Assembly: GCF_009914755.1 (NCBI RefSeq)
Contig: NC_060927.1
Reading direction: 5' to 3' (one strand)
Source: the human T2T-CHM13v2.0 reference genome, Homo sapiens
DNA length: 64,000 bases
Positions 14,130-62,939 of this stretch are shown here, in pieces. Both the position numbers and the translations under genes were made by a program. Below the pieces are notes generated by a model. It ran no database searches and was not told the origin of the DNA. It worked only from the letters and a program-made list of their open reading frames with translations. The first letter of the stretch is position 1. Each line of letters opens with the position of its first letter.

Positions 14130-15570
14130 AAAGAGCCTCAGTCTTTCTCTCTCCACTTTTTAATGTCTGACTCAATTCTTGCCTTTATATAATGTGGCCT
14201 TTGTCCTTATTATTTAACTAATATTTTCCTGCTATGTTCAACAATAATCATATCTCTCCTTATTTCTCAGCAACACTTGTTGTGTAGATAACACCCTCCT
14301 CCCTGAAAACCTCTTCCCTTTATTGATAGCCCATGTACCTAGTTTTTCTCTCCCATGTCCTCTCTCTTCAGGATATATAGGTTAAACCTGTTCTATTTGT
14401 CATTCCGTGCTGGATTTCCTGCGAATAACTCAAGCTTAAACCTTTTTTCTCACCATTCGCCCTCTACCTAGACAAACTTATATCTACAGCTTCAGCTGCC
14501 ACCACACATTTCTCTCTTTAGCCACATTCTACTCTTAAGTTCCTACTTCGCGTCTCTCTTTTATTTCTAAAGGGGATCTCTGACTCATCATATTCCAAAT
14601 AGAACTCATCATCATCTGCCCTTACAAATGGCTATCACCTTTGATCCTGTTGAATGTACCTGAAGCCCAGCAGTCATTTTTTTTACTTCTTTATTAATGA
14701 ATTAAGTCAATTAATAGTGAATTCTACTTCTTATTCCCCGACCCCACAGTCAAATGACCATCATTTTTCATATTACCTCAAAATGTATTTTGAATCTGTC
14801 TGCTCTCCATTAATCTAGTTGAAGATGACAATGACGATAATAATGATGATGATGACAATGATGAGGATGATGATAATTGCTAACATTTATTGACTTATTG
14901 ACTACTTAGCATATGTCAGGTGCTGTAATGCTCTTATTCTAATAGACCACTTGCCGTAATCCTAATATAAACTCTTGTCATTCCTCAATTTGTCCTCTAC
15001 ACTAAAGCCAGAATGATACAGTGGTGAGAAAAATTGGTATCAAACTTCTTCCCAAACCCGTTTGATGAGTTCCACATCCTATTAGAATAAATACAAAGTC
15101 TATTAAAAGGCTGGCAAGGCTTGTAAGATTTCACCCCTGCCTACTCACTTGAGCCTTAACGCATACTGTCCCCCCACACCTCTCTCTTTGCAATACTTAT
15201 TATCCCTTTTCTTCTTTTAATTTCCTGAATGTGTCATTTGCCCTGTGTTTATTGTATTTTTCTTTCTAGAAGGTAGAATGACTATTCCCACTGGTTCAGT
15301 TAACTACTCATCACCTTTGAAATCCCTCTAGTTAGTCACAGAGTCCTCTGTCTACGTTCTACTCCCGCACCCCTATGGCTTGATCTGCTTCTACTGGTTT
15401 CTTTTTCTCTACACTAGTAACCTCACTGATTTGAGGAGATGATGTCATTAAATTTTGTCTTCTCTCACTACACTGTAAGAACCAAGAGATCCAGTAAATT
15501 TTCTTCTTTTTGCTTACCTTTCTCACAGATATCAGGATTCAATACACATCTGATAAATGAATAAAGAAAG
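14130..15570 (+). mobile_element. L2 LINE 3' portion (diverged, interrupted)
   Basis: Pyrimidine-rich L2-like blocks ('accctcctccctgaaaacctcttccc', 'tccaaatagaactcatcatc', 'cctctacactaaagccagaatgat') ending 'tcaatacacatctgataaatgaataaa'. Confidence 0.7.
14821..14876. repeat. Imperfect (GAT)n tract, probably a MIR/L2 tail
   Basis: gaagatgacaatgacgataataatgatgatgatgacaatgatgaggatgatgataa followed by 'gctaacatttattga'. Confidence 0.8.
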
Positions 15571-15872
15571 AAAAAGGAAGAAGTAAAATATACTATTCTG
15601 CAAGCCAGCTTGGACCCTTACTTTTGCTTACCATTCCCTCTACACACAGGTCCTGTGAGATATCAAGGCATCAGGTCCTGTAGATTGTATGTCTTATTAT
15701 CTCTTAGATCTGCTCCATTCCATTGTCTTACATTCAAATCCCATCAAATTTATCCAAGTGTCTGCAATAACTAGTATGGCTGCCTTGGAGGTCTTTCTTT
15801 GTTTTATCATTGCTATCACAGCTGGAGTGATTTTCCTAAATGCAGTCCAGATTTAAAATTGATAAGTGGATT

Positions 15873-16414
15873 CTATTTCAGTTACCTATTGCTGTGAAGC
15901 AGATCTCTTTAAAGCTTAGTGACTTAGGACAAAGCTTTATTATTTCTCATTGTCCCAAGGGTTGACAAAGCTCTTCTGATCAGTTCTTGCTTGGGGTCCT
16001 TTACAGGGTTGCAGTTAGATGTTGACCAGGATCATAGTCATCTGAAGGCTTCAGGAAGCTGTACAACCCAAAATGGCTCACACATGACTCACTGCTGTGG
16101 CTGGGAGCTTAGCTTAAGATGTTGACTGAATCCCCTATTGTGGCCTCTCTACGTGACTCGGGCTTCTCATACCAGAGCTTCTAGGTTCTAAGAAGAAGCA
16201 TACCAACAACTACCTCAAGAGACTGAGATAGAAGCCACAAAATGTATTGACAATGCAGCCTTAAAAGGAACATATTATAACTTTCACTATATTTTCTTTG
16301 GTTAAAAGTGAACCACTGGATTAGCTCATATTTAATAGAAAGAAACTCTAGAAGAATATTAATACTGAGAGTATGGTTCTTTTGGGGGCCATCTTTGGAG
16401 ACTAATTGCTACCA
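15873..16414 (-). mobile_element. MLT1H-type LTR
   Basis: 'cagttacctattgctgtg...aagcttagtgactta' start and 'ggggccatctttggagactaattgctacca' end. Confidence 0.8.
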
Positions 16415-17298
16415 TCTGTGTTACTTCACGTAACATACATCAATGGTATTTCCTAATCCTGCCTTTGCCTATACCTGTAGTCTTACCTTTGACCCCTATT
16501 CCAACCCCATTTATTTATACATACACTTGGCTGCATGCATTTAGTTTCCTGAGTATAGTAATAATGTAGTTTTAGGCCACCATAAAACTTTCTTATATGC
16601 TCTTCTACAAGATGTTTTGTATTTGTTTTTTATTTGCTAGGTTTTTCTAACTTTATTCATTCTTTACAATATAAATGTAGAAGCTGTCATTCTTTATGGG
16701 AAGTCTCTCTAACAGTCTTCCAGCTGTTTTCTATTCCTGTTGCAACCTGTGAATACTTGTATCATTGGACACTGTAATCATTTTAAATTACTTGAGGGCA
16801 GCGACAAACTCTTAGCCAATTTTATATGAAGAAGTCATGGCAGGTAACAGGGCAAGAAATAAATCCTTGCTGAATAACTGGATAAGAAGAAGCACTTATT
16901 TTGCTCTTAGACTAGACACATTTTTAGAGCTGCTTCTAGTAGGTTTAATTTCCAGTCTTTTGCTGTATATGTATCCCTTCATTTTATGAGCCTATGTCCT
17001 TTCTGAATGGTTCAACAATAAGCTGTGAATTACTCATAAACTACAAGGGAAGCCTGATAACTATCTATAGCACACTGCCTTGATTGCCTGACATGAAGGC
17101 TGTTCTGTATAATTTCAATAAAGATATTTAAAACTGAAGACTGTGATTCTTCACACAGTTTTGTGAAACTGCATGTCATTACATGCAAAATGGAAGTTTT
17201 GCATAATTTTCAAAAATTCTTAAAGGAAATCTATTTTCAGTTCATGTGATATAATAGTTTTCATCAAATTAATATTGAATGTCTAAAAGTATAACATT

Positions 17299-41780: not shown

Positions 41781-42826
41781 CCAACTCCTCACCCATTTCA
41801 TCTTCACGTGACAAATATCACTCTTCATTCTTTAAGTTTCATTTGTAATTCTTAAATTCAATTCTTTCATTTTCATCTTCAGAGAAAAATGAATAGATGG
41901 ATTAAGAAAAGAGAATGACCGTAATTAATCTATAAAGTTAACAAAATTTCCATAAAAACCCCTCTAGGGGGTACCTTCACAATGTTTCTAAATCTCATCT
42001 AGAAAAATAAGTGATTTGTGAATGCCTCAGATTCTGTTCTAGGACCTATTACCTTTATACATCCCTGGAAAATTTCATATGTTACTAAAGGCTTATTTGC
42101 TTCTATATTTTGAAAACCTCTAAATGTACTTCTCCTGTTCCCAAGACTCTCATATCCAGCTGCCTACTTGATTTCCCAGTGTGGATCTCTAATAGGCATC
42201 TCAAAGTTAAACTTAACATGCTCCGAGCTGAAATCTTGACTCCCTAGAGTCCTTCCCCAGTTTCTGTCATGTTGGTAAATGGCAATACCACTCATCCAAC
42301 CGCTAAAGTCCAAAACCTTAGAGTTTTTTAATTTCTCTATTGCTTTTACAACCCCTACCCAAAATATCAGCAAACCATTTTACCTATTTTCCAGATATGT
42401 CCAGAATCTGACCACTTCTCATCAACCATACTATTATATGGCATCCCAATCCACCATCTAATATTGCAATAGACTTGTGGCTTGTGCTTCAGCTTTCACT
42501 CTTGCCCCTCTATGGTCTATTCATTACATAATAGTCACAATGAACCTTTTAATAGCCAAATCAGTTCATGCAATTTATGGCTCCAAACTCTACAAACTTC
42601 CCATTGCTTTAAAAAGAAGCAAGTCTTTAAAAGGCCAAATCACCTTTTGTGGCTTCTGTCTCCTTGGCCCACTGCACTCCAGCCACAATGAACATTATGT
42701 GGTTGTTTTTCAAACACTGCCAGATACTCCTGCCTCAGGGCCTTTGCACGTATACTTTTCTTTGATTGGAATGATTGATCTCTGGCTATTTTTCACTGTC
42801 TTGTTTTTTTCATGCCTCTGTTTAAA

Positions 42827-43096
42827 AGTCTCTCTCTCCCTCGCTGAAGTGCAGTGGTGTGATCTTGGCTCACCACAGCCTCAACCTCTCATGCTCAAGC
42901 AATCCTCCCACATCAGCCTCCCAAGTATCCTGGAGTACAGGTATGTGCCAGCATACCAGGCTAATTTTGTTTAATTTTTTAAAGATGAGGCCTCACTGTG
43001 TTGCCCAGGCTGGTCTCAAGCTCCTAGGCTCAAGCCTTCTTCCCGCCATGGCCTCCCAAAGTGCTGGGATTATAGGCATGAGCCACCACACTGGGC
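42827..43096 (-). mobile_element. AluJ lacking its A-tail
   Basis: 'gtgcagtggtgtgatcttggctcacc...gctcaagcaatcctccc...ctcccaaagtgctgggattataggcatgagccacc'. Confidence 0.92.
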
Positions 43097-43159
43097 AATG
43101 TCCCATTTTTAAAGGGGAATTCTCCAACTACTGTACCTAAAATAATATCTCTTGTCTTG

Positions 43160-43560
43160 TGTGACGGTTAATTTTATGCATCACCCTGGCTAGGCTGTAG
43201 TGCTCAGTTATTTGGGCAAATATAAGTCTAGATGTTGCCATGAAGGTGGTAGTTACAGGCAAGTCACGTTGAAATCAGTAGATTTTGAGTGAAGCCGAGT
43301 ACTCTCTATAATATGGGTGGGCATCCTCTAATCAGTTGAAGGTGTTCACAGAAAAGACTCAGGTTTCCCAAACAGGAAATAATTCTTCCCACGGTCTGTC
43401 TTGACTCAGGCTGAGACATTAACTTCTGCCAGCATTCCCAGCATTCCCAGCATTCCCAGCATTTCCAGCATTCCCAGCATTTCCAGCATTCCCAGCCTGC
43501 TGGCCTGCCTTGCAGACCTTGCACTTTCCAGCCTCTGCAATCACATAAGCCAATGCTTCT
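43160..43560 (+). mobile_element. MLT2 (C/D-type) ERVL LTR
   Basis: Starts tgtgacggttaattttatg; 'ctctataatatgggtgggcatcctctaatcagttgaagg'; 'ccagcctgctggcctgccttgcagac'. Confidence 0.88.
43429..43496. repeat. 9-bp minisatellite (CCAGCATTY) x7.5
   Basis: Five CCAGCATTC and two CCAGCATTT units plus a partial unit. Confidence 0.97.
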
Positions 43561-43879
43561 TCCTTAACCTGCTTTATTTGTCTTCACAACTTATCACTCC
43601 CTTACACTATATTTTAAACCTCTTTGTTTACTCATTCATTGTCTGCCTTCCCAATTTGAAGATAGGTTTCAAGAAGAAAAAATTTTCAGTGGTATGTTCA
43701 GTGTTGTAATTCTAGCACCTAGAAAATTCCTTGGCATATATTTTTTCAAAAAGTGTATTTGTACTCCAAACATTATTTCTCAGTGAATGAATTACTAGGC
43801 ACAAGAGTTTGGAAATACTATAACTCATAATTATTTGAAACATAATTGTATGATGTTCTACCAGGCATTACAATGTATT

Positions 43880-44205
43880 TGAGTGGTAGTTGCTGGGGGC
43901 GCAGTAGGGTGTGGGGTTGGAGAGGTGTTTGTTAAAGGATACAAAACTTTAGTTAGATAGGAATAAATTCAAAAGATGTATTGTACAATGTGGTCACTAT
44001 AGTCAATAACAGTATATTGTATTCTAGAAAATCACTAATGGAGTAGATTTTCAGCATTATCACCACAAATAAATAAATAAGTGTGAGGTAACATATATGT
44101 TAATTAGCTGTATTTAGAAATTATATAATAAATATATATTTCTAAATATTCTGTTCTGTGCAAGAAATACATAATTTTTGTCAATTTAAAAATTTATTAA
44201 TTAAA
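43880..44205 (+). mobile_element. L1MA 3' end
   Basis: 'ttaaaggatacaaaactttagttagataggaataaattcaa...gagtagattttcagcattatcaccacaaa'. Confidence 0.88.
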
Positions 44206-44289
44206 GAGAATCTTGGCATATAAACTTTTGAACAAGCAATACATCTGTAACCAAACATACATCTGCTTCTTCTTAGTTTGTCTGCTTTT

Positions 44290-44588
44290 TTTTTTTTTTT
44301 TTTGAGACAGAGTCTTGCTCTGTCGCCCAGGCTGGAGGGCAGTGGCACAATCTCGACTCACTGCCACTTCCGCCTCCAGGATTCAGGATTCAAGCAATTC
44401 TCTGCCTCAGCCTCCTGAATAGCTGGGATTACAGGAACCCACCACCATGCCTGGCTGATTTTTGTATTTGTAGTAGAGAGGGGGTTTCACCAGGCTGGCC
44501 AGTCTGGTCTTGAACTCCTGACCTCATGATCCACCCTCCTCAGCCTCCCAAAGTGCTGGGATTACAGGCCTGAGCCACTGCGCCCAGC
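44290..44588 (-). mobile_element. AluS
   Basis: Perfect 15-bp TSD agtttgtctgctttt; internal 7-bp duplication caggatt. Confidence 0.97.
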
Positions 44589-45720
44589 AGTTTGTCTGCT
44601 TTTAATGCATGAGTCTGTATACACCCCATCCACTTAAATTTATCTGGTTTTCCTTTCTACCCCTCATAGGTCAACCTAGTCTTTACCTTACTCCTGCTCA
44701 TTACCCAGAACTCCAAAACTAAATCCATTCTTAGTAAGATGCTACCACTGATCTCATGACCTTATTGGAGGGATGATATTTGGAAGATTACACCTGCCAC
44801 TGTCCTTTCCCTCAATTTCTCCGCAACATAAGGCTTTGTATAGGTAATGCCCTTTACTGAAAAGTAGGGGAAAATATAATACAGGAATAAAAAAACTTAA
44901 ATATGGATGCTACATATGACTGTCCCTAGATTCCAAAGAAAATGTGAAGTGAAAAAATGATATCTTGTATAGGAGTCCCTTTGTTGACACTCCTCAGCCC
45001 TAAGCTTTGCTTCTCTATCCCAATGTCCAACCTCTATTCTTCATCATCTGGAGAATACACTCCACTTCCTTCTCAAATAACATATGGCTTGACTTTCAGG
45101 AGTACATTTCTCAAGTCCTAAATTATTCCTTCTGGACAAACATTATGGAAAAGAAATCAACTGTAGGCTTTGATCACCCAATCAGTCTCTTTTGAGATCT
45201 TTTCAAAGAATGAAAAGGCACCTGTTCATTCTTCCTGCAGCCATTCTGTTACAGGTAACTATTCGACCAAACACTGAAAGTAGAGTCAGAGTTAGCAAAT
45301 GTGAAGACACACATGTACGTGCAACAGACATTTCAAAGAGTATACATTAAAACTATATCAATGGAGAGAAACAACTTCCTAAAATCTATGTCATCTCCAA
45401 AAATCCCCCTAAAGATCTACAATGGAGACAATTTTACATTGCTTTACAGACTATGAATTCTCCTTTTTTTAATGATGGTTCCAAGCTAGCCCGTGTGTGT
45501 GCTGATATACAAATAAGTAGGGCAAATTACTAGACCTTATCAAAGAACAGAGACACAATGGTTTGGCCAACTTTATTTACATAAAGACCTGGCCAAAGGT
45601 TTAAAACTCAGAATTTGTTTTTTCATTTAATCCAGGAATGAGAGTCAAACACCCAAACACCGGTGGAGGGGAGGTTTTAAAACCTGGGGTGGTGGGGGGA
45701 CAGTAAAAATAGTTTATTTT

Positions 45721-62360: not shown

Positions 62361-62939
62361 CATTCCGACCTAAAAACAGTATTCATAAGAAGCATAAAGA
62401 TTACTAGAAGGAGACCTTCTCAGGCAGAATGACATTCTAGAATGATCTGCAAGTCCCTGAAGGTAATAAGGCAGCTGTTTTATTGCTTAATCCCCAAGTC
62501 ATGTTCAGGTTTTCTCTTCTTATTTTGAAAAAGAATGTTGCTCTAAAGAGACAGCGATTATTTTGCACAGTGAAAGAACGGAGATGAGAAATACAGGATC
62601 CCTTTTAAGTAATATTATGTGTTTAACTTTTATCTAGGTAGTTTTGAAAGAAAAACAGGTTTAAGTGCATGAAATTATGTATCTATATCATATGACTTTC
62701 TTTTAATATAACGGTTATAAAATTTTCATACAGTGTGATTGCAAGCCAGTGTTTCCTGGGGACATGCGTGCATGTGAATATATATTTCAGTGCTTTTACC
62801 CATGTATGTACATATATGTGAGTGTTTAATGAGTACATCTGCCCATTGGATGAATTTCACTTCATTCTGACAATAGAATTGCCTGTTCAAAGGGAGGAAA
62901 AAAGATTAATATAACTAAAAGGAAAAATAAAAAGTTAGA

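What the first reader, a model, noticed from the sequence alone, without database searches (positions are those of the whole stretch)
43395..43500. Minisatellite expansion in an MLT2 LTR builds a natural multimerised TEAD array beside an AP-1 site
Seen: CATTCC-cag-CATTCC-cag-CATTCC-cag-CATTTC-cag-CATTCC-cag-CATTTC-cag-CATTCC, i.e. five perfect and two variant cores at a 9-bp period, with TGACTCA at 43402-43408. Known: CATTCC is the TEAD (M-CAT) core, TEAD binds cooperatively to tandem sites with a 3-bp spacer, and TEAD + AP-1 co-occurrence marks YAP/TAZ enhancers. Inference: slippage inside a dead LTR created a reporter-like Hippo-responsive enhancer whose strength could scale with copy number. 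This is the best novel candidate in the window.
Basis: partly seen in the sequence, partly recalled or inferred. Interest (0 to 1): 0.72.

Follow-up and report, generated by a model that had tools for sequence, protein, structure and literature searches.

The report
Phased TEAD-site array in old LTR
A 68-base run of a 9-base repeat inside a roughly 100-million-year-old retroviral LTR remnant in a ROBO2 intron lines up seven TEAD-type binding cores beside an AP-1 site, within a stretch already annotated as a stem-cell enhancer; whether TEAD really binds there is untested.

Summary
TRF finds a 9-bp array at 43429-43496 (7.6 units, 93% match), with five CATTCC and two CATTTC cores in strict 9-bp phase. 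TGACTCA lies 24 bp upstream.

The host is a 3'-truncated solo LTR, about 43160-43567. Pairwise K2P of 0.31 to 29 relatives gives about 70-154 Myr.

None of the 29 relatives has the array, so it is a local expansion younger than the LTR.

Adjacent units reproduce the published strictly spaced Tead double motif, 15 of 17 bases identical to a printed high-affinity example.

Genome-wide, this is the only one of five loci outside CATTC-type pentamer repeats (18 of 23 hits) with more than three phased cores.

RefSeq already annotates 43070-43703 as an 'OCT4-NANOG-H3K27ac hESC enhancer'.

TEAD binding, YAP dependence and copy-number scaling remain untested. Tandem-repeat TEAD platforms are already in print: the 5p15.33 VNTR1 and HSat3. 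Verdict: a real and plausible new member of a known kind.

The parts
43160..43567 (+). 3'-truncated solo LTR remnant of the MLT2 (ERVL) group, sense to ROBO2. Subfamily not resolved.
   Evidence: 841 first-look candidates in the genome; 40 of 40 scored at E <= 7.6e-24, 70-76% identity. The 5' end is fixed at 43160 by alignment A2, where upstream flanks differ among copies. Likeness to relatives stops at about 43560-43567, while 5 of 10 aligned relatives run 60-100 bp further to a shared end. The window matches the print-named MLT2B1 copy at E 4e-11.
43429..43496 (+). 9-bp tandem array, 7.6 units (5 x CCAGCATTC, 2 x CCAGCATTT, partial CCAGC).
   Evidence: TRF score 122. Units listed. Absent from 29 of 29 relatives.
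43432..43457 (+). Three perfect cores forming two overlapping exact matches to the printed Tead double-motif pattern (17-mers at 43432-43448 and 43441-43457).
   Evidence: 2 hits against 0.03 expected. The 17-mer is identical at 15 of 17 bases to the high-affinity double motif printed in PMC12008814.
43460..43495 (+). Two exact copies of an 18-bp block, each holding one variant core (CATTTC at 43460 and 43478) and one perfect core (CATTCC at 43469 and 43487).
   Evidence: the two 18-mers are identical.
43402..43408 (.). AP-1-type heptamer TGACTCA, 24 bp upstream of the first core.
   Evidence: The exact heptamer occurs anywhere in the LTR of only 2 of 29 relatives.
43070..43703 (.). RefSeq functional element 'OCT4-NANOG-H3K27ac hESC enhancer', covering the whole LTR and array.
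   Evidence: Annotation file read.
42826..43100 (-). Neighbouring antisense Alu (bounds approximate). Only its last ~30 bp lie inside the annotated enhancer.
   Evidence: Rfam sub-threshold SRP and mir-1285 matches at 42852-43040 on the minus strand. Masked repeat at 42950-43098. Sequence.

Best explanation
SHOWN:
- An MLT2-group (ERVL) solo LTR inserted here roughly 70-150 Myr ago and later lost its 3' end.
- At one site, relatives carry a single short stretch; for example L007 reads CTAGAATTTCCAGCCTC there.
- This copy instead carries a 9-bp unit that was duplicated head to tail about six extra times. The last step was an exact 18-bp duplication.
- The result is seven TEAD-type cores (five CATTCC, two CATTTC) at a strict 9-bp period, 24 bp from a TGACTCA heptamer.
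- All of this lies inside a 634-bp stretch that RefSeq annotates as an hESC enhancer.

INFERRED:
- The perfect neighbours form Tead double motifs on which two TEAD molecules bind cooperatively.
- The row of sites raises local TEAD occupancy. With YAP/TAZ and AP-1, this makes a TEAD-dependent module that contributes to the annotated enhancer activity, and possibly to ROBO2 regulation.
- The expansion needs no special DNA structure. Slippage or unequal exchange between the short direct repeats is enough.

The confidence given (0.5) is for the inferred functional part; the shown structural part I hold at about 0.9.
For: Array and phase.

Local origin:
- 0 of 29 relatives have two cores 9 bp apart.
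- At the homologous site, readable in 17 of 29 relatives, 0 of 17 have CATTCC and 4 of 17 have ATTTCC.
- The window holds about 55 more bases than L024 and L019 between shared flanks.
- One relative (L014) has its own 8-bp x 2.2 duplication at the same site.

Younger than the LTR: 10.5 substitutions are expected in 68 bp at LTR age, against at most 2 seen, P = 0.0018.

Family and age. PMC4419796 lists MLT2B1-4 and MLT2D as 'Eutherians'.

TEAD logic in print:
[quoted passage not shown] A 1-bp indel weakens it.
- The same paper finds the motif for TEAD1-4 in human ENCODE data and reports that AP-1 adds to YAP1 binding.
- Its printed high-affinity example, GCATTCCCGACATTCCC, compares with the window's GCATTCCCAGCATTCCC.
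- bioRxiv 10.1101/2024.10.22.616524 says the commonest configuration is two motifs 3 bp apart.

Rarity: 23 genome hits for three cores in phase, against 0 and 2 for the controls. 18 are CATTC-type pentamer repeats. The other four non-pentamer loci have 3 units and this one has 7.

Enhancer annotation. Inside that interval I found no octamer within one mismatch and no good SOX-OCT composite, so AP-1 plus the array is the only conspicuous motif cluster among the few recalled motifs I scanned for.

Host gene: PMC8452540 calls ROBO2 a TEAD1 target, with several TEAD1-bound enhancers in the ROBO1/ROBO2 loci.

No hairpin tendency: z = 0.10 and 0.25.
Against: - No occupancy, accessibility or activity data for the array itself could be read. 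Supplements are closed and there is no ChIP resource here.
- The strict single-site pattern printed in PMC12008814 (RMATTCCWD) has 0 matches in 43070-43703, because C follows every core.
- Two of the seven cores are CATTTC, so only 2 of 6 adjacent pairs are perfect.
- The RefSeq label names OCT4, NANOG and H3K27ac, not TEAD. The link of such labels to ChIP-STARR-seq is my inference.
- The same label class includes elements made of two Alus (PMC13205175), and an episomal assay need not reflect chromatin (caveat in PMC8744684).
- The element sits deep in a 787-kb intron, and old LTRs with chance tandem duplications are common: 19 of 29 relatives carry some tandem repeat, mostly microsatellites.
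Confidence: 0.5

Rival explanations
1. Neutral by-product. The array is an ordinary slippage product in decaying LTR DNA with no regulatory role. The annotated enhancer activity comes from other sequences in the 634-bp interval, or from the assay format.
For: - 19 of 29 relatives carry tandem repeats of some kind, and one has its own small duplication at the very same site.
- The RefSeq label cites OCT4, NANOG and H3K27ac, not TEAD.
- The same label class can be plain Alus.
- The strict single-site pattern is not met.
- The ChIP-STARR-seq preprint stresses that only a minority of marked regions are active and that repeats are over-represented among active fragments.
Against: [quoted passage not shown]
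- Such phased triples are very rare outside pentamer repeats: 5 loci, and this is the only one above 3 units.
- No octamer or SOX-OCT composite was found that would explain the label otherwise.
Confidence: 0.35
2. The array is bound by a different factor. The opposite strand reads GGGAATGCTGG repeatedly, which offers TGGGAA-type cores. These recall sites of Ikaros-family, RBPJ or NF-kB half-site binders (names recalled, not from a call). One of these, rather than TEAD, may be the relevant reader.
For: The minus-strand sequence of the array is shown. The C after each TEAD core, which fails the strict single-site pattern, is the same base that creates the GGG on the other strand.
Against: I had no motif library or binding data for these factors, so this is a resemblance from memory only. 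The exact 9-bp phase has a printed meaning for TEAD and none that I know of for the others.
Confidence: 0.1
3. The array is an inherited feature of an LTR subfamily rather than a local expansion.
For: Four of the ten relatives aligned in A1 (L008, L010, L011, L012) carry an extra module of about 50 bp in the same part of the LTR. This shows that the region varies in length among copies.
Against: - 0 of 29 closest relatives, and none of the three print-named MLT2 copies examined, show a 9-bp array.
- The units are far too alike for LTR age (P = 0.0018).
- Only 40 of 841 first-look candidates were scored, so a small unseen subfamily is not strictly excluded.
Confidence: 0.03

Closest known systems
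Tead double motif (strictly spaced pair of TEAD sites; PMC12008814, passages seen)
   Same: Two RMATTCC 7-mers separated by 2 bases, that is cores 3 bp apart at a 9-bp period. The window 17-mer matches 15 of 17 bases of the printed high-affinity example, including C after both cores.
   Different: Here there are seven sites in a row instead of two. Two of them have a variant core. Nothing is known of binding at this locus.
5p15.33 VNTR1 enhancer (PMC13001379, medRxiv 2026, passages seen)
   Same: A natural tandem repeat whose units carry TEAD motifs. That one is reported to bind TEAD1, TEAD4 and TAZ, to act as an enhancer and to be verteporfin-sensitive.
   Different: A different locus and repeat unit; there the motif spans the unit junction of a longer unit. 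It is not reported as LTR-derived in the passages I saw. That one has functional data and this one has none.
HSat3 TEAD/YAP binding platforms (bioRxiv 10.1101/2024.10.22.616524, passages seen)
   Same: Tandem repeats that multiply CATTCC cores and are reported to bind TEAD1-4 and recruit YAP, including in hESCs.
   Different: Those are megabase pentamer satellites in heterochromatin. This is a 68-bp euchromatic array with the 9-bp double-motif phase, inside an annotated enhancer.
Synthetic multimerised TEAD reporters (8xGTIIC type; recalled, no call)
   Same: Several TEAD cores in a head-to-tail row.
   Different: The natural array has C rather than A/T after the core, and two variant units.
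Print-named MLT2 LTR copies hosting MIR5694 (MLT2B1) and MIR1269A/B (MLT2B3) (PMC10379226 Table 2, passage seen)
   Same: Same LTR group. The window LTR aligns from its first bases with the MLT2B1 copy (E 4e-11, 62% over 199 bp). 28, 24 and 24 of 29 relatives hit the three copies.
   Different: Identity to these named copies (about 60-69%) is lower than to the window's best relatives (70-76%), so the window probably belongs to a sister subfamily. None of them has the array.

Membership tests
MLT2 group of ERVL LTRs | LTR sequence homologous to copies that print names as MLT2 | tested here: met
   window against the MIR5694 locus copy (MLT2B1), E 4e-11. 28 of 29 relatives hit it (best 6e-21). 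24 of 29 hit each MLT2B3 copy, though a few of those hits are Alu or simple repeat. In each case the named miRNA lies inside the matched LTR span.
MLT2 group of ERVL LTRs | LTR termini (TG at the 5' end, CA at the 3' end) and a short target-site duplication | tested here: inconclusive
   The 5' TG is at 43160, and flanks diverge upstream of it. The 3' end is missing, so neither the CA nor a duplication can be read.
MLT2 group of ERVL LTRs | Flanks an ERVL inner region in full-length elements | not tested
   It was not needed once print-named LTR copies matched.
MLT2 group of ERVL LTRs | Age: older MLT2 subfamilies are shared by eutherians (PMC4419796 table) | tested here: met
   K2P median 0.309 to 29 relatives. 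Half of that gives 70, 103 or 154 Myr at 2.2, 1.5 or 1.0e-9 per site per year (rates recalled). Orthologous loci in other mammals could not be examined.
MLT1 (ERVL-MaLR) LTRs | LTR sequence homologous to copies that print names as MLT1 | tested here: not met
   No LTR-level blastn hit from the window or the 29 relatives to MLT1B (PPCS), MLT1E1A (NT5C1B), MLT1C (MIR558) or MLT1H2 (MIR3927), nor to the copy in DDX10 intron 1 that I took for the paper's MLT1D. The only exception is one 45-bp hit at E 0.02. Local-alignment z >= 4 in 4 of 31 and 9 of 31 comparisons, against 0 of 31 in three controls, shows only a remote likeness.
Tead double motif | Two RMATTCC sites with a fixed 2-base gap | tested here: met
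   2 exact matches, 0.03 expected. Four further adjacent pairs have one CATTTC half.
Tead double motif | Cooperative TEAD occupancy | not testable with these tools
   No binding data or predictor was available.
YAP/TAZ-TEAD-AP-1 enhancer | AP-1 site close to TEAD sites | tested here: met
   TGACTCA at 43402-43408, 24 bp from the first core.
YAP/TAZ-TEAD-AP-1 enhancer | Enhancer activity that depends on YAP/TAZ-TEAD | tested here: inconclusive
   RefSeq annotates 43070-43703 as an hESC enhancer. Nothing ties the activity to the array or to YAP. The activity table is in a supplement that is closed.
VNTR / minisatellite | Head-to-tail array of a unit longer than a microsatellite unit | tested here: inconclusive
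   The array is certain. A 9-bp unit lies on the border between the usual size classes (convention recalled).
VNTR / minisatellite | Copy number varies among people | not testable with these tools
   Reads, other assemblies and the assemblies look-up are off. Only T2T-CHM13 was seen.

The most novel reading that the evidence does not exclude
The array is the longest phased TEAD-site row in the euchromatic human genome. It expanded on the primate lineage and varies in unit number among haplotypes. It acts as a dosage-tunable TEAD/YAP-AP-1 input to ROBO2. Print calls ROBO2 a TEAD1 target, and Robo receptors are reported to feed back on Tead expression (PMC8452540). An old ERVL LTR would then have supplied, through a later tandem duplication, a graded Hippo-responsive element in a ROBO2-TEAD loop.
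Probability: 0.12. Interest if true: 0.72.

Novelty: new member of a known kind. Interest (0 to 1): 0.46.

Why it matters
If TEAD does occupy the array, this would be a clean natural example of how a dead retroviral LTR gains a new regulatory input long after insertion. The gain would come not from the virus's own sites but from a later 9-bp tandem duplication that happens to fall in the exact phase needed for cooperative TEAD binding.

It would join the 5p15.33 VNTR1 and HSat3 as natural multimerised TEAD platforms. It would also offer a small, countable allele series (unit number) for relating site number to occupancy.

It lies in ROBO2, a gene already tied to TEAD in print.

If TEAD does not bind, it is an ordinary short tandem repeat in an old LTR, and the annotated enhancer must be explained otherwise.

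Tried and rejected
1. My own first reading of the family was MLT1/MaLR, from recall. I tested it against copies named in print and rejected it.
- The copies were MLT1B upstream of PPCS, MLT1E1A upstream of NT5C1B, MLT1C at MIR558, MLT1H2 at MIR3927, and a copy in DDX10 intron 1 that I took for the paper's MLT1D.
- None gave an LTR-level match. Only a remote likeness was seen. Those were mononucleotide shuffles, 40 per comparison, so the z-scores are rough.

2. A 110-kb trawl around PPCS, NT5C1B and DDX10 with the window LTR and relatives gave only Alu and simple-repeat hits.

3. A full-text search for a 12-base stretch of the LTR's 5' end found 8 papers, of which 4 were listed. All four were bacterial or yeast papers, so irrelevant.

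4. A guessed PMC id for the 1993 paper that first described these LTR families was not held.

5. Rfam at a permissive threshold over 42600-44000 gave 5 matches, all in the flanks upstream of the LTR (four over the Alu, one weak lncRNA-family hit at 42649-42758), and nothing for the LTR.

6. The RefSeq mobile-element features on chr3 carry no family names.

7. I recalled that the LTR flanks look like an older SINE split by the insertion. A search of the genome with 43561-43800 returned only the window itself, so this remains recall.

8. Hairpin-driven expansion is not supported: DNA folding z = 0.10 and 0.25.

9. A possible target-site duplication was looked for by eye and is not convincing, because the 3' end is missing.

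10. No protein tools were used, since the feature has no coding content.

11. I found no paper on this array. Searches were TEAD, tandem, cooperative, direct repeat, CATTCC; TEAD, VNTR, minisatellite, tandem repeat, LTR, enhancer; ROBO2, TEAD, YAP, intron, enhancer. No listed title concerns this locus. The library cannot be searched by coordinate.

12. Closed supplements may bear on the claims:
- the ChIP-STARR-seq BED and activity file of 10.1101/146696;
- the enhancer and TEAD1 tables of PMC8452540;
- the VNTR1 tables of PMC13001379.

13. The subfamily within MLT2 could not be resolved without a repeat library.

Full report
WHAT IS THERE

- TRF reports one array at 43429-43496: period 9, 7.6 copies, 93% matches, no indels, score 122.
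- The units are five CCAGCATTC, two CCAGCATTT and a partial CCAGC.
- The 18-mer at 43460-43477 recurs exactly at 43478-43495, so the last step was probably a two-unit duplication.
- Read as cores, this gives CATTCC at 43433, 43442, 43451, 43469 and 43487, and CATTTC at 43460 and 43478.
- TGACTCA sits at 43402-43408, 24 bp before the first core.
- CATTCCCAG occurs 5 times in the window, all in the array, against 0.71 expected. 0 of 100 shuffles reached 5.
- Neither strand of the array folds better than shuffles as single-stranded DNA: z = 0.10 and 0.25.

THE HOST ELEMENT IS REAL

A genome search with the LTR gave 841 first-look candidates.
- All 40 that were scored matched at E <= 7.6e-24 with 70-76% identity. 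One of the 40 is the window itself.
- 35 of the 39 other hits start within 8 bases of the query's first base.
- Alignment A2 shows that nine relatives and a print-named copy begin at the same point, and that upstream flanks are unrelated. This puts the 5' end at 43160. My query in the early calls began two bases too far in.
- Relatives share about 350-460 bp.
- In alignment A1, likeness to the window stops near 43560-43567. Five of ten relatives (L002, L008, L011, L012, L019) run 60-100 bp further to a shared end.
- The window copy is therefore a 3'-truncated solo LTR on the + strand, sense to ROBO2. No target-site duplication can be read.

WHICH FAMILY

No repeat library was available, so I used copies that papers name and that I could locate through genes.

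I expected MLT1 (MaLR) from memory. That was wrong.
- MLT1B lies upstream of PPCS and MLT1E1A upstream of NT5C1B (PMC3836709, passages).
- MLT1C is at MIR558 and MLT1H2 at MIR3927 (PMC10671384 and PMC4330264, passages).
- I also used a copy in DDX10 intron 1.
- None of these gave an LTR-level blastn hit from the window or its 29 relatives. The hits were Alu or simple repeat, plus one 45-bp hit at E 0.02.
- A local-alignment test gave z >= 4 in 4 of 31 (MLT1B) and 9 of 31 (MLT1E1A) comparisons, against 0 of 31 in each of three controls. That is a remote likeness only.

The MLT2-named copies did match.
- They were taken from PMC10379226 Table 2 (passage): miR-5694 from MLT2B1, and miR-1269a and miR-1269b from MLT2B3.
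- The window hits the MLT2B1 copy at E 4e-11, 62% over 199 bp from the LTR's start.
- 28 of 29 relatives hit the MLT2B1 copy, the best at 6e-21.
- 24 of 29 hit each MLT2B3 copy, and a few of those hits are Alu or simple repeat.

Identity to the named copies is lower than to the best relatives, so the subfamily stays open.

HOW OLD

- K2P between the pre-array part of the window LTR and the 29 relatives has a median of 0.309 (range 0.245-0.366).
- Among 28 relatives the median is 0.271. L022 was dropped as a duplicate of L021.
- Half the window value gives 70, 103 or 154 Myr at 2.2, 1.5 or 1.0e-9 per site per year (rates recalled).
- Two biases pull in opposite directions. The relatives are the best 29 of 841 candidates, which lowers the estimate. 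They may span subfamilies, which raises it.
- Print lists MLT2B1-4 and MLT2D as 'Eutherians' and MLT2A1/2 as 'Primates' (PMC4419796, passage).

THE ARRAY IS A LATER, LOCAL EVENT

- 0 of 29 relatives have two CATT[CT]C cores 9 bp apart on either strand, while the window has six such overlapping pairs.
- TRF on the LTR slices finds tandem repeats in 19 of 29 relatives. These are mostly di- and tetranucleotide runs further 3', and none is a 9-bp array.
- L014 has its own 8-bp x 2.2 duplication at the very site.
- Between shared flanks the window holds about 55 more bases than L024 and L019. That fits six added units.
- The homologous site could be placed in 17 of 29 relatives. There, CATTCC occurs in 0 of 17 and ATTTCC in 4 of 17. 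For example, L007 reads CTAGAATTTCCAGCCTC and L013 reads CTGGAATTTCCAGCCTG. The TEAD-type core is therefore new to this copy, and the CATTTC variant is the form nearer to the relatives.
- If the array were as old as the LTR, 10.5 substitutions would be expected in 68 bp. At most two are seen, and they are the same change twice: P = 0.0018.
- The 95% upper bounds are loose: 32-70 Myr for one event and 42-93 Myr for two.
- TGACTCA occurs anywhere in the LTR of only 2 of 29 relatives, and AGACTCA in 5 of 29.

WHAT THE ARRAY RESEMBLES

- TEAD4 binds it cooperatively, at about 4-fold over additive.
- A 1-bp insertion or deletion weakens it.
- It is more active than a single site in reporter tests.
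- It is found for TEAD1-4 in human ENCODE data.
- The paper's pattern for that spacing is RMATTCCNNRMATTCCNN.
- It also reports that AP-1 motifs add to YAP1 binding.

The window compares as follows.
- The printed high-affinity example is GCATTCCCGACATTCCC. The window reads GCATTCCCAGCATTCCC twice, at 43432-43448 and 43441-43457. That is 15 of 17 bases identical.
- One of the two differences falls in the free spacer. The other is A versus G at the first base (R) of the second site, which the pattern allows. C follows both cores in both sequences.
- The pattern matches twice in the window, against 0.03 expected.
- The strict single-site pattern of the same paper (RMATTCCWD) matches nowhere in 43070-43703.

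HOW RARE

Three CATTCC cores at 9-bp steps occur 23 times in the genome (19 forward, 4 reverse), against 0 and 2 for the reversed-pattern control.
- 18 of the 23 are CATTC-type pentamer repeats on chr4, 21, 22 and Y.
- The other five are chr2:12053275, this locus, chr6:88653309, chr12:16139641 and chr12:62264703.
- The other four have exactly three units. This one has seven, five of them perfect.
- The tool warns that such counts are lower bounds and that closed regions are not shown.

FUNCTIONAL CONTEXT

RefSeq annotates 43070-43703 (chr3:76551070-76551703) as an 'OCT4-NANOG-H3K27ac hESC enhancer'.
- Neighbouring features carry the sister labels 'H3K4me1 hESC enhancer', 'NANOG-H3K27ac hESC enhancer' and 'OCT4-NANOG hESC enhancer'.
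- These four marks are those of the hESC ChIP-STARR-seq study (10.1101/146696, passages).
- The RefSeq Functional Elements paper names that method as data to be added (PMC8744684, passage).
- That this label derives from that study is my inference.
- The label does not mention TEAD. Elements of the same class can consist of two Alus (PMC13205175, passages).
- Within the interval I found no octamer within one mismatch and no SOX-OCT composite better than four mismatches (motifs recalled).
- The window lies in a 787-kb ROBO2 intron, or 1.16 Mb in the long isoforms.
- PMC8452540 (passages) calls ROBO2 a TEAD1 target in human pancreatic progenitors. It mentions several HNF1B- and TEAD1-bound enhancers in the ROBO1/ROBO2 loci. 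It also cites work in which Robo receptors control Tead expression. Which enhancers are meant I could not see.

WHAT IS KNOWN ALREADY

Natural tandem repeats that multiply TEAD sites are in print.
- The 5p15.33 VNTR1 binds TEAD1, TEAD4 and TAZ, acts as an enhancer and loses activity with verteporfin (PMC13001379, passages).
- HSat3 arrays bind TEAD1-4 and recruit YAP, including in hESCs.

I found no paper on this array.

VERDICT

- Structure, origin, family and rough age are well supported.
- The regulatory reading is plausible and specific, but rests on motif logic plus an annotation that is not specific to the array.
- I put about 0.5 on a real TEAD-dependent contribution, 0.35 on a neutral by-product, 0.1 on another factor and 0.03 on an inherited subfamily feature.
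- If real, it is a new member of a known kind.

Noticed in passing
window 42826-43100 (minus strand): Antisense Alu directly upstream of the LTR. Rfam gives sub-threshold SRP and mir-1285 matches there. Only its last ~30 bp fall inside the annotated enhancer.
   Followed up: partly
window 43100-43159 and 43568-43800: From recall, the LTR's two flanks look like the two halves of an older SINE split by the insertion, with the junction at the truncated 3' end sharing a few bases with both. A genome search with the downstream flank found only the window itself, so this is unconfirmed.
   Followed up: partly
window 15262-16461 and 62494-62663: Two further RefSeq functional elements lie in the window: a 'CDK7 strongly-dependent group 2 enhancer' and an MPRA CRE fragment (experimental_71246).
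   Followed up: no
L021 / L022 (chrX 151041376 + and 150960040 -), plus chrX 151025787 + and 150975628 -: Two pairs of LTR copies with identical match statistics lie in mirror orientation about 80 kb and 50 kb apart. This suggests a large inverted duplication on Xq that carries two copies of the family on each arm.
   Followed up: no
L048 (chr2:12053275, minus) and L049 (chr6:88653309, plus): Two unlinked loci carry nearly the same 30-base stretch with three phased CATTCC cores, differing at 3 of the 30 bases shown. They may be copies of another repeat family that carries a triple TEAD-type site.
   Followed up: no
L014, LTR slice positions 282-299: Another copy of the family has an independent 8-bp x 2.2 tandem duplication at the site homologous to the 3' edge of the window's array. 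This hints that the spot is prone to slippage.
   Followed up: partly
L002-L030, LTR slice positions ~355-465: 19 of 29 relatives carry tandem repeats. Most are di- or tetranucleotide microsatellites clustered in the 3' part of the LTR that the window copy has lost.
   Followed up: no
L008, L010, L011, L012 (alignment A1 columns ~50-100): Four of ten aligned relatives have an extra module of about 50 bp in the 3' half of the LTR that the others and the window lack. This is either a subfamily difference or an old internal duplication.
   Followed up: no
window 44275-44592: A poly-T run followed by a 318-bp masked repeat, probably another antisense Alu. A small 17-bp x 2.1 tandem repeat also lies at 42789-42823.
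   Followed up: no
L035 7350-7478 and 8853-9065 (minus; DDX10 intron 1): An LTR copy resembling the print-named MLT1B copy is split by about 1.4 kb that includes Alu-like sequence. It is probably the MLT1D element from which the DUX4 paper's antisense DDX10 transcript starts.
   Followed up: partly
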